Assembly: GCF_009914755.1 (NCBI RefSeq)
Contig: NC_060941.1
DNA from: the human T2T-CHM13v2.0 reference genome, Homo sapiens
DNA length: 64,000 bases
Direction: 5' to 3' (one strand)
Within the stretch, counting starts at the first letter, position 1, and each line of letters begins with the position of its first letter. Under the pieces are notes generated by a model. The model made no database searches and was not told where the DNA came from. It saw nothing but the letters and a program-made list of their open reading frames with translations. This document shows positions 59,957 through 61,538 of this stretch, piece by piece. Made by a program: the position numbers and the translations under genes.

Positions 59957-61538
59957 ATTTTTTTTTTGAAACGGAGTTGCGCTCTTCTCACCCAGACTAG
60001 AGTGCAGTGGTGAGATCTCGGCTCACTGCAACCTCCGCCTTCTGGGTTTGAGTGATTCTCCTGTCTTGCCTTAGCCTCCCTATTAGGAGGGACTACAGGC
60101 ACATGCCACCACGCCCAGCTAATTTTTTTTTTTGAGACAGAGTCTGTCTCCCAGGCTGGAGTGCAGTGGCGCGATCTCGGCTCACTGCAAGCTCTGCCTC
60201 CCAGGTTCATGCCATTCTGCCTCAGCCTCCCAAGTAGCTGGGACTACAGGCGTCTGCCAGTACGCCCAGCTATTTTTTTTAATTTTTAGTAGAGACGGGG
60301 TTTCACCGTCTTAGCCAGGATGGTCTTGATCTCCTGACCTCGTGATCTGCCCGCCTCGGCCTCCCAAAGTGCTGGGATTACAGGTGTGAGCCACTGTGCC
60401 CAGCTGCAATGTTCTTACCTCTGCCTGAAATGTCCTTTGATCTCAACCTTCAAGGCCCACCTCAGTTGTCACTTCCTCCTTAATTCCTTCCAGATGGTAT
60501 GTTCAAATTTGTTCCTAGACAAATTTACTCTTCTCTAGGTTTCACTATTTTATTAGAGACAGAGTCTTGCTCTATCAACCAGGCTGGAGTTCAGCAGTGT
60601 GATCATAGCTCACTATAACCTCAGCCTCTCGGGCTCAAACAATCCTCCCGCCTTAGCCTCCCAAGTAGCTAGGACTACAGGCATGCACCACAATGCTCGG
60701 CTAATTTTTTTTTTTTTTTTGAGACAGAGCCTCACTCTGCTACCCAGGCTGGAGTGCAGTGACTTGATCTTGGCTCACTGCAACCTCTGCCTCCCAGGTT
60801 CAAGCGATTCTCCTGTCTCAGCATCCTGTGTAGCCGAGATTACAGGTGTGCGCCACCACATCTGGCTAATTTTTGTTTGTTTGTTTGTTTGAGATGGGAG
60901 TCTTGCTGTGTCGCCCAGGCTGGAGTGCGATGGCACGATCTCGACTCACTGCAACCTCCGCCTCTCAGGTTCAAGCGATTCTCCTGCCTCAGCCTCCCGA
61001 GTAGCTGGGATTACAGGCATCCACCACCATGCCCAGCTAATTTTTGCATTTTTAGTAGAGACGGGGTTTCATCACGTTGGCCAGGCTGGTCTCAAACTCC
61101 TGACCTCAGGTGATCCGCCTGCCTCGGCCTCCTAAAGTGCTGGGATTACAGGCATGAGCCACCGCACCCGACCAAACGTTATGACCACAAAGGGACTCAA
61201 ACCCTCAATCTTCTGATCTGAAGTCAGACACCTTATCCATTAAGGCCACACGGTCTCCTACTCTAATTTTTGGATTTTTAGTAGAGACTGGGGGTTTCAC
61301 CATGTTGGCCAGGCTGGTCTCAAACTCCTCACCTCAAGCGATCTGCCTGCCTCGGCCTCCCAAAGTGCTAGGATTACAGGTGTGAGCCACCAGACCCAGC
61401 CATAATTTTTAAATTTTTTGTAGAGACAGGGTCTCACTATGTTGCCCAGGCTTGTCCCAAACGCCTGGCTTCAGGTGATCCTCATGCCTTGGCCTCCCAA
61501 AGTGTTGAGATTACAGGCGTGAGCCACCACACCCGGCC
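59957..61538 (-). mobile_element. Antisense Alu clusters, including a three-level nest (60548-61538) that contains the tRNA(TCA) copy
   Basis: Split Alu arms with TSDs in the A-rich linkers. Confidence 0.9.
61182..61255 (-). tRNA. tRNA-Arg(TCG)-derived copy with TCA anticodon (opal-suppressor/SeC-like call, probably a pseudogene), 74 nt
   Basis: GACCGTGTGGCCTTAATGGATAAGGTGTCTGACTTCAGATCAGAAGATTGAGGGTTTGAGTCCCTTTGTGGTCA; anticodon arm TCTGA-CT-TCA-GA-TCAGA; body matches the Arg-TCG family. Confidence 0.85.

What the first reader, a model, noticed from the sequence alone, without database searches (positions are those of the whole stretch)
60866..61272. Pre-tRNA-Alu chimeric retroposon inserted as one unit (shared TSD)
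Seen on the minus strand, in order: TSD CAAAAATTAG (61272-61263), 7-nt leader AGTAGGA, full 74-nt tRNA, 8-nt trailer TAACGTTT (U-run end, no added CCA), full Alu from its first base (GGTCGGG..., 61173), (AAAC)n tail, TSD CAAAAATTAG (60875-60866). The TSD lies in the A-rich linker of an older Alu whose two arms are split around the unit. Established: L1 machinery produces chimeric retrocopies such as U6/L1 by template switching or RNA ligation, and Pol III pre-tRNAs carry short leaders and oligo-U trailers. Inference: an unprocessed pre-tRNA was joined at its UUU 3' end to an Alu RNA, or was co-transcribed with it, and the whole was retrotransposed. This would be a tRNA-headed Alu with extra A/B boxes. 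I do not know of a description of this as a class.
Basis: partly seen in the sequence, partly recalled or inferred. Interest (0 to 1): 0.85.

Follow-up and report, generated by a model that had tools for sequence, protein, structure and literature searches.

The report
Pre-tRNA fused to Alu retrocopy
An unprocessed arginine tRNA precursor and a complete Alu RNA were copied into DNA as one piece and inserted together, and at least nine similar tRNA-plus-Alu insertions lie elsewhere in the same genome.

Summary
On the minus strand, one 10-nt target-site duplication (TSD) encloses a 7-nt leader, a 74-nt tRNA, the trailer TAACGTTT, a full-length Alu starting at G1, and an (AAAC)n tail. The TSD is Alu positions 128-137 of an older host Alu.

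The tRNA is a CpG-decayed copy of the Arg-TCG gene at G000:C17:75,926,860-75,926,932. That gene has the same trailer, GAACG followed by a T4 terminator, and no Alu downstream. This fits RNA-level joining and argues against co-transcription.

My genome scans found nine more tRNA::Alu units. Seven of the ten have clear whole-unit TSDs, nine have a T-run abutting Alu G1, and two carry the tRNA-Tyr intron. Six have an identifiable parent gene, none followed by an Alu. In the scan that left the junction free, 7 of 8 tRNA-derived hits had a T-run junction, against 1 of 60 other hits.

Best reading: L1 ORF2p finished copying an Alu RNA, jumped onto the UUU-3' end of a nascent pre-tRNA, and copied it to its start. 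RNA ligation before reverse transcription is not excluded.

It is a new variant of known chimeric retrocopies (U6/L1, U6/Alu). My literature searches found no description of it. No copy shows amplification.

The parts
61263..61272 (-). 5' copy of the target-site duplication, CAAAAATTAG
   Evidence: It equals Alu positions 128-137 of host Alu B.
61256..61262 (-). pre-tRNA 5' leader, AGTAGGA
   Evidence: It matches the parent's AGCCGGA at 5 of 7 positions. An older chr4 copy has (G)AGAGGA.
61182..61255 (-). tRNA-Arg-TCG-derived body. It is 74 nt long, the anticodon is now TCA, 6 of 7 CpGs are lost, and there is one T insertion in the D region.
   Evidence: ARAGORN. Rfam scores 52.5 bits against 68.2 bits for the parent.
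61174..61181 (-). pre-tRNA 3' trailer, TAACGTTT. It ends in T3, with no CCA.
   Evidence: The parent has GAACGTTTT followed by aatcc.
60891..61173 (-). full-length Alu (Alu C) starting at G1. It looks AluS-like, judged only from recalled diagnostic positions.
   Evidence: Two Metazoa_SRP hits. 9 of 21 CpGs are kept and non-CpG divergence is 10 of 237 from a local consensus.
60876..60890 (-). (AAAC)n A-rich tail of the unit
60866..60875 (-). 3' copy of the target-site duplication, CAAAAATTAG
61273..61401 (-). left arm of host Alu B, split by the unit
60705..60865 (-). right arm and A-tail of host Alu B
61402..61538 (-). left arm of the oldest Alu (Alu A). Alu B inserted into it at the same linker site.
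   Evidence: The two arms overlap at Alu positions 129-136.
60546..60704 (-). right arm and tail of Alu A

Best explanation
This is one L1-mediated (target-primed) insertion of a chimeric cDNA.

L1 ORF2p nicked the T-rich strand of the A-rich linker of an older Alu. It primed on the A-rich tail of an Alu RNA and copied that RNA to its first base. Without releasing the cDNA, it then jumped to the UUU-3' end of a nascent, unprocessed pre-tRNA-Arg-TCG. That pre-tRNA came from the gene at G000:C17:75.93 Mb and had terminated in that gene's T4 terminator. ORF2p copied it through to the 5' leader, and the product was sealed with a 10-nt TSD.

Shown here:
- a single TSD encloses both parts
- the parent gene has the matching leader, body and trailer
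- the junction lies inside the parent's terminator
- no Alu follows the parent
- the same architecture recurs elsewhere in the genome

Inferred:
- the joining step was a template jump rather than a ligation
- it happened in the nucleus on a La-type UUU-OH primary transcript

The copy is now a decayed and most likely inert pseudogene.
For: (1) Anatomy and TSD are established.

(2) Parent. Of 11 genomic matches to the 126-nt query, only C17:75926857-75926940 extends through the trailer (91% identity, query positions 28-112). Its flanks read AGCCGGA | tRNA | GAACGTTTTaatcc. The copy shares that gene's GACCG, GAGTCCC and GTGGTC bases, which the Arg-TCG genes L003, L004 and L008 lack.

(3) No Alu lies downstream of the parent.

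(4) Ages agree.
- The tRNA body has 0 of 59 non-CpG changes and has lost 6 of 7 CpGs.
- The Alu has 10 of 237 non-CpG changes and has lost 12 of 21 CpGs.
- Fisher p is 0.36, and the probability of 0 of 59 is 0.079.

(5) The architecture recurs. Ten distinct tRNA::Alu units were found, each from a different tRNA gene:
- L011 Lys-TTT
- L012, L014 and L117 Asp-GTC
- L013 and L116 Tyr with intron
- L015 Leu-TAA
- L017 Ile-AAT, 5'-truncated
- L102 Leu-AAG
- L018, the present unit

Seven of the ten have whole-unit TSDs with 10-13 matched bases.

(6) Six units have assignable parents, none followed by an Alu. In the 5 pairs with alignable T-runs, the copy's run (3-4 T) is never longer than the parent's (4-5 T).

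(7) Controls.
- In the junction-unbiased scan, 7 of 8 tRNA-derived hits have TTT abutting Alu G1, against 1 of 60 other hits (Fisher p = 6.5e-8).
- With the gap shifted, 0 of 5 hits are tRNA.
- With a mature or CCA end, 0 of 2 hits are tRNA.

(8) Native ends on both RNAs (Alu G1, pre-tRNA UUU) fit an end-to-end jump. RtcB ligation needs a 2',3'-cyclic phosphate and a 5'-OH (abstract of PMC6789731).
Against: - No primate orthologue could be examined, so the empty site and the joint arrival of tRNA and Alu are inferred from the TSD only.
- The leader matches the present-day parent at only 5 of 7 positions and the trailer at 7 of 8.
- A precise junction cannot by itself separate a template jump from a ligation.
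- The tRNA lost proportionally more CpGs than the Alu (6 of 7 against 12 of 21), though the difference is not significant.
- For the other nine units, 'full-length Alu' was imposed by my search patterns. A by-eye look at 95 hits for 5'-truncated Alu partners found none obvious, but it was not tool-verified.
- Three of the ten units lack a clear TSD: L014 and L017 lie in older A-tails, and L117 is eroded.
- The parents of L011 and L102 are not assigned. L102's trailer does not end in a T-run.
Confidence: 0.75

Rival explanations
1. RNA ligation came first. A pre-tRNA and an Alu RNA were ligated into one chimeric RNA, which L1 then retrotransposed conventionally, as proposed for U6/L1.
For: U6/L1 chimeras can arise by RtcB ligation (abstract of PMC6789731). 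The junctions here are precise, with no filler bases, in 9 of 10 units.
Against: RtcB needs a 2',3'-cyclic phosphate on the upstream RNA and a 5'-OH on the downstream RNA. From general knowledge, a nascent pre-tRNA ends in UUU-3'OH and a primary Alu transcript starts with a 5'-triphosphate at G1. The Alu is not 5'-cleaved here. A 5'-phosphate-dependent ligase acting after dephosphorylation is not excluded.
Confidence: 0.13
2. Read-through, or 5' transduction. An Alu once sat directly behind the tRNA gene's weakened terminator, and Pol III transcribed tRNA and Alu as one RNA that was then retrotransposed.
For: The junction has only T3, a weak terminator. L015 shows that Pol III can read through a T5 run.
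Against: The parent gene has an intact T4 followed by unique sequence and no Alu. The same holds for five other parents. The genome has no second copy of the junction. Ten different source loci would each need an Alu inserted exactly within the T-run. From general knowledge of the TT/AAAA target, L1 endonuclease preference does not favour that for sense-oriented Alus.
Confidence: 0.06
3. Two independent events or chance adjacency. A tRNA retropseudogene and an Alu landed side by side, or the repeat is not a true TSD.
For: A-rich 10-mers are common in Alu linkers. Shuffles reach 10 or more matches in 43 of 2000 trials.
Against: The duplicated 10 nt are the same positions (128-137) of one host Alu. 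Neither part has a TSD of its own, with best matches of 6 and 6. The same geometry recurs with unrelated TSD sequences.
Confidence: 0.03

Closest known systems
U6/L1 and U6/Alu chimeric retrocopies (Buzdin 2002 and 2003; Garcia-Perez 2007; Doucet 2015, PMC4476161)
   Same: A full-length Pol III transcript ending in a U-run is joined head-to-tail, in sense, to a retroelement that supplies the A-tail. The whole lies within one TSD and is made by L1.
   Different: Here the 5' partner is an unprocessed pre-tRNA with leader, trailer and sometimes intron, not U6. The 3' partner is a complete Alu, not a variably 5'-truncated L1. Doucet 2015 (passages) calls U6/Alu chimeras very rare and not reproduced experimentally.
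tRNA/LINE-1 chimeras (Law & Burns 2026, PMC13174262)
   Same: tRNA sequence co-inserted with an L1-mobilised element inside one TSD.
   Different: Those 21 loci are mostly tRNA halves, antisense to the LINE-1, and are ascribed to twin priming (passages). The units here are full precursors, in sense, joined to an Alu.
pre-tRNA and tRNA 'tailless retropseudogenes' (Schmitz 2004, cited in PMC4476161, PMC2912911 and PMC5322556)
   Same: Unprocessed nuclear tRNA precursors serve as L1 reverse-transcriptase templates.
   Different: Tailless copies have no A-tail, are usually 3'-truncated, and are primed internally. Here priming is on the Alu's A-tail and the pre-tRNA 3' end is complete. I could not read Schmitz 2004 itself.
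Composite tRNA/7SL SINEs of galago and tree shrew (mentioned in PMC3575423)
   Same: A tRNA-derived head is fused to 7SL-derived (Alu-type) sequence.
   Different: Those are amplified families. The human units are single, independent, non-amplified events, each from a different tRNA gene.

Membership tests
L1-mediated (TPRT) insertion | Target-site duplication flanking the whole insert | tested here: met
   A 10-nt TSD equal to host Alu positions 128-137, present twice.
L1-mediated (TPRT) insertion | A-rich 3' tail next to the 3' TSD | tested here: met
   (AAAC)n tail at 60890-60876.
L1-mediated (TPRT) insertion | T-rich endonuclease nick site (TTTT/AA-like) on the opposite strand | tested here: inconclusive
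   The plus strand reads CTAATTTTT/GG at the nick. There is a T5 run, but GG follows instead of AA.
L1-mediated (TPRT) insertion | Empty orthologous site in an outgroup | not testable with these tools
   No other primate genome is held.
Chimeric retrogenes of the Buzdin type (features as listed in PMC2104539) | The 5' part is a full-length copy of a cellular RNA | tested here: met
   Leader, body and trailer match the primary transcript of the parent gene.
Chimeric retrogenes of the Buzdin type | The 3' part is 5'-truncated at a random site | tested here: not met
   The Alu starts at G1.
Chimeric retrogenes of the Buzdin type | Parts directly joined, same orientation, flanked by direct repeats | tested here: met
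Tailless tRNA retropseudogenes | No A-tail, and a 3'-truncated tRNA primed internally | tested here: not met
   The tRNA 3' end and trailer are complete, and the A-tail is supplied by the Alu.
Functional tRNA-Arg gene | Intact cloverleaf, B box and anticodon, with a terminator of T4 or longer | tested here: not met
   It scores 52.5 bits against 68.2 for the parent. The B box has C to T, the anticodon is TCA, there is a 1-nt insertion, and the run is only T3.
Composite tRNA/7SL SINE family | Multiple copies sharing the same head-body junction | tested here: not met
   No second copy of the junction among 11 genomic matches. The ten units all differ.
Alu with 5' transduction or read-through | A source locus with the tRNA gene directly upstream of an Alu | tested here: not met
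   The parent is followed by unique sequence.

The most novel reading that the evidence does not exclude
Pre-tRNA::Alu chimeras form a recurrent and so far undescribed class. After completing an Alu RNA, L1 ORF2p jumps preferentially onto the UUU-3'OH ends of nascent Pol III primary transcripts in the nucleus.

The resulting insertions preserve pre-tRNA starts, introns and termination points. They also show, caught in the act, how tRNA-headed composite SINEs such as galago type II and the tree-shrew families can be born.
Probability: 0.4. Interest if true: 0.65.

Novelty: new variant of a known kind. Interest (0 to 1): 0.55.

Why it matters
- **Wider partner range.** It extends the known partners of L1-driven RNA recombination. 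An Alu acts as the primed template and whole unprocessed pre-tRNAs act as the captured 5' partner.
- **Nuclear capture.** Leaders, trailers ending inside the parent's terminator, and in two units the Tyr intron all show that the captured RNAs were primary nuclear transcripts. This bears on where and how ORF2p meets other RNAs.
- **SINE origins.** It offers a concrete route by which a strong tRNA promoter can be placed in front of an existing SINE body.
- **This locus.** The practical consequence is small: a decayed, probably inert pseudogene between NR1D1 and MSL1.

Tried and rejected
- **Co-transcription.** Rejected because the parents lack a downstream Alu.
- **Raw pattern count as an enrichment test.** The real pattern gave 8 hits. 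A reversed-B-box control gave 7, two of them the same X/Y pseudoautosomal sequence, and I did not screen those for tRNAs. The raw count is therefore not enriched. Only the tRNA content of the hits and the T-run junction are informative.
- **Tool's built-in control.** The pattern read backwards gave 0, but this is uninformative because it loses the Alu anchor.
- **First TSD null.** It was contaminated by poly-A flanks. I redid it on the five non-A-rich loci.
- **Mature or CCA-ended tRNA joined to an Alu.** Two hits, neither a tRNA.
- **Unassigned parents.** Not assigned for L011 (leader fits L029, trailer fits L040) or for L102.
- **Alu subfamily.** Names rest on recalled diagnostic positions, not on a consensus library.
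- **Literature.**
  - The phrases 'tRNA-Alu', 'Alu-tRNA', 'tRNA Alu chimera', 'tRNA Alu chimeric' and 'tRNA Alu fusion' occur in 0 papers of the library. One paper holds 'pre-tRNA retropseudogene'.
  - Wider term searches gave no description of the class.
  - Buzdin 2003 and Schmitz 2004 are not held, so a mention there cannot be excluded.
  - I did not open any supplements, including Table S3 of PMC13174262.

Full report
**1. The observation**

Read on the minus strand, the window holds, in order:
- CAAAAATTAG (61272-61263)
- AGTAGGA (61262-61256)
- a 74-nt tRNA (61255-61182)
- TAACGTTT (61181-61174)
- an Alu from its first G at 61173, with a 283-nt body
- an (AAAC)n tail (60890-60876)
- CAAAAATTAG again (60875-60866)

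ARAGORN calls the tRNA. Its 'SeC' label only reflects the anticodon TCA. Rfam's tRNA model scores it 52.5 bits against a gathering score of 29, and six Metazoa_SRP hits mark the Alu monomers around it.

The unit lies inside an older Alu (B), which itself lies inside a still older Alu (A). The repeat finder groups the arms accordingly.

The left arm of Alu B aligns to Alu positions 5-137. The right arm, beginning with the second CAAAAATTAG, aligns to positions 128-298. Ten bases of one Alu are therefore duplicated, which is what a target-site duplication (TSD) is. Alu B entered Alu A at the same linker site, where the arms overlap at positions 129-136.

Flank matching:
- The whole unit gives 10 matched bases.
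- Twenty mismatched flank pairs give 4-8.
- An Alu-only TSD gives 6, and a tRNA-only TSD gives 6.
- Shuffles of the A-rich upstream flank reach 10 in 43 of 2000 trials.

The positional argument is therefore the stronger one.

**2. What the tRNA is**

The window's own genome could be searched. The 126-nt query gave 11 matches. Only one match other than the locus itself runs through the trailer: G000:C17:75926857-75926940, at 91% identity over query positions 28-112.

That locus (L002) reads ...gcAGCCGGA | GACCGCG...GTGGTCG | GAACGTTTTaatccctgc..., and Rfam scores its tRNA 68.2 bits.

The copy shares this gene's GACCG, GAGTCCC and GTGGTC bases. The Arg-TCG genes L003, L004 and L008 have GACCA, GAATCCC and GTGGTT instead.

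Differences between copy and parent:
- In the body there are six CpG transitions, one of which turns the anticodon TCG into TCA, plus one inserted T.
- There are no non-CpG substitutions in the body.
- The leader matches at 5 of 7 positions and the trailer at 7 of 8.

The copy's trailer ends in T3 exactly where the parent has its T4 terminator. After that run the parent continues with unique sequence, while the copy continues with Alu G1. No Alu follows the parent.

An older copy on chr4 (L009, 78% identity, Rfam 43.3 bits) also keeps a leader, (G)AGAGGA, and a trailer, AAATGTTT, and has no Alu. It agrees with the window copy on A at leader position -4, where today's parent has C. This suggests the parent's flank has changed since. 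That is an inference.

**3. Are the two halves the same age?**

I compared Alu C with a majority consensus of 31 near-full-length Alus taken from the window and the fetched loci. Alu C keeps 9 of 21 CpGs and differs at 10 of 237 non-CpG positions. The tRNA body keeps 1 of 7 CpGs and differs at 0 of 59 non-CpG positions.

Neither contrast is significant (Fisher p = 0.36; binomial probability of 0 of 59 is 0.079). The data are compatible with one age but do not prove it.

By recalled diagnostic positions the Alu looks AluS-like. No consensus library was available to test this.

**4. Is it a one-off?**

*First scan.* I searched the genome for a B-box motif, a gap of 11-40 nt, TTT, and a CpG-tolerant Alu head. 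This gave 8 hits.

A control with the B box reversed gave 7 hits. Two of them are the same sequence on C23 and C24, and I did not screen these hits for tRNAs. The raw count is therefore not enriched. What matters is what the hits are:
- Rfam finds a tRNA at the motif in 6 of 8, and ARAGORN in 5 of 8.
- A seventh hit, L017, is the 3' 58 nt of an Ile-AAT tRNA. I recognised it through its parent gene.
- The eighth hit, L016, is a plain Alu with its own TSD, GACTTTTT.

*Shifted-gap control.* With the gap moved to 41-70 nt there were 5 hits, and 0 of 5 are tRNAs.

*Junction-unbiased scan.* With no TTT required and a gap of 15-43 nt there were 68 hits:
- 8 are already-known loci, 7 of them tRNA-derived and 1 (L016) not.
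- Of the 60 others, Rfam finds a tRNA in 1: L102, a Leu-AAG with trailer ACTTACT.

So a T-run abuts Alu G1 in 7 of 8 tRNA-derived hits and in 1 of 60 others (Fisher p = 6.5e-8).

*Mature-end scan.* A scan for an Alu starting 0-3 nt after the discriminator base, that is at a mature or CCA end, gave 2 hits, neither a tRNA.

*Shorter Alu head.* This gave 12 hits, 9 of them tRNA-derived. It added L116 (Tyr) and L117 (Asp).

In all there are ten distinct units.

**5. Properties of the ten units**

Whole-unit TSDs, clear in 7 of 10:

| Unit | Matched bases |
|---|---|
| L011 | 12 of 13 |
| L012 | 12 of 13 |
| L013 | 13 of 14 |
| L015 | 10 of 11 |
| L018 (this window) | 10 of 11 |
| L102 | 11 of 12, by eye |
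| L116 | 10 of 11, by eye |

L014 and L017 sit in older Alu A-tails, so their TSDs are ambiguous. L117 shows no evident TSD.

L013 and L116 carry the tRNA-Tyr intron. ARAGORN models L013 with a 16-nt intron and spans 93 nt in L116. L013's intron matches that of a chr8 Tyr gene at 14 of 16 positions.

L015's 28-nt trailer runs through an internal T5 and ends at the parent's next T4.

Parents with matching trailers were found for six units, none followed by an Alu:
- L018 from L002
- L012 from L033
- L014 from L037
- L015 from L026
- L017 from L115
- L013 from L020, with the trailer matching only in part

T-run lengths, copy against parent, in the five alignable pairs:

| Unit | Copy | Parent |
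|---|---|---|
| L018 | 3 | 4 |
| L012 | 3 | 5 |
| L014 | 3 | 5 |
| L015 | 4 | 4 |
| L017 | 3 | 4 |

The parents of L011 and L102 remain unassigned.

Every unit derives from a different gene or trailer, so these are independent events and not an amplifying family. No second copy of the window's junction exists.

**6. Mechanism**

Three facts are shown:
- One TSD and one A-tail serve both parts.
- The 5' part is a Pol III primary transcript, with leader, trailer ending inside the terminator, and sometimes an intron.
- The source genes have no Alu behind them.

The two RNAs were therefore joined as RNA or cDNA, not co-transcribed.

I favour an end-to-end template jump by L1 ORF2p from the Alu's 5' end onto the pre-tRNA's UUU-3' end. 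Both RNAs keep their native ends. The alternative documented for U6/L1, RtcB ligation, needs a 2',3'-cyclic phosphate and a 5'-OH (abstract of PMC6789731). From general knowledge, a nascent pre-tRNA and a primary Alu transcript do not have those ends.

A 5'-phosphate-dependent ligation is not excluded. The sequence alone cannot settle this.

It is my inference that only precursors, not mature tRNAs, appear because they are nuclear, U-tailed and little modified.

A by-eye look for 5'-truncated Alu partners (95 hits) found none obvious, but it is weak evidence.

**7. Comparison with what is known**

- Chimeric retrocopies of U6 and other RNAs with L1, and rarely with Alu, are established (passages in PMC4476161). 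PMC2104539 lists the known 5' partners as mRNAs, rRNAs, snRNAs, transposable elements and 7SL RNA, and tRNA is not among them.
- Pre-tRNA 'tailless' retropseudogenes are known (Schmitz 2004, seen only as cited).
- Law & Burns 2026 report tRNA/LINE-1 chimeras as new. There are 21, mostly antisense halves ascribed to twin priming. They also report 452 Alu/LINE-1 chimeras in which the Alu is the 5' partner (section 12).
- Composite tRNA/7SL SINEs exist in galago and tree shrew (PMC3575423).

No paper in the searched library contains 'tRNA-Alu', 'Alu-tRNA' or similar phrases. Seven broader searches found no description. Buzdin 2003 and Schmitz 2004 could not be read, and I opened no supplements, so prior mention cannot be ruled out.

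**8. Verdict**

The co-transcription alternative is disfavoured.

This is a new variant of a known kind: a sense-oriented, full-length pre-tRNA::Alu chimeric retrocopy, one of at least ten in this genome. At this locus it is a decayed, probably inert pseudogene, with a mutated B box, anticodon TCA and only T3.

Interest is moderate. The class is neat and informative about the mechanism, but it extends a known process.

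Noticed in passing
L009 (G000:C4:40880642-40880740, minus strand): An older Arg-TCG copy (78% identity, Rfam 43.3 bits) has a leader, (G)AGAGGA, and a trailer, AAATGTTT, but no Alu. It agrees with the window copy, against today's parent, at leader position -4. 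It may have diverged flanking repeats, CTCAAAAATGGGAGAG and CTTAAAAAAGATGCAGAG. It could be a pre-tRNA retropseudogene of the tailless type.
   Followed up: partly
window 60546-61538: There are three nested insertions: Alu A, then Alu B, then the tRNA::Alu C unit. Both later insertions hit the same linker site, Alu positions about 128-137, AAAAATTAG.
   Followed up: yes
L013 (G000:C8:66.12 Mb) and L116 (G000:C2:218.73 Mb): Two tRNA-Tyr::Alu units still carry the tRNA intron, so the templates were unspliced precursors. L013 lies only about 0.4 Mb from its parent gene, L020.
   Followed up: partly
L015 (G000:C11:113.57 Mb) and its parent L026 (G000:C6:145.41 Mb): This Leu-TAA unit has a 28-nt trailer that runs through an internal T5 and ends at the next T4. 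It records Pol III read-through of the first terminator.
   Followed up: partly
L017 (G000:C17:8.11 Mb): This Ile-AAT::Alu unit is 5'-truncated in the D loop and inserted in an older Alu's A-tail, about 18 kb from its parent gene, L115.
   Followed up: partly
one search hit list: Many background hits appear, by eye and by recall of the MIR sequence, to be MIR elements followed by an Alu. The MIR's tRNA-derived core contains a B-box-like GGTTCAAATCC. Three near-identical hits (C7:99.05 Mb, C8:46.93 Mb, C8:47.11 Mb) look like segmental duplicates.
   Followed up: no
L002 (G000:C17:75.925-75.928 Mb): The parental Arg-TCG gene sits in a small tRNA cluster. Rfam finds two more tRNAs within 1.3 kb upstream.
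   Followed up: no
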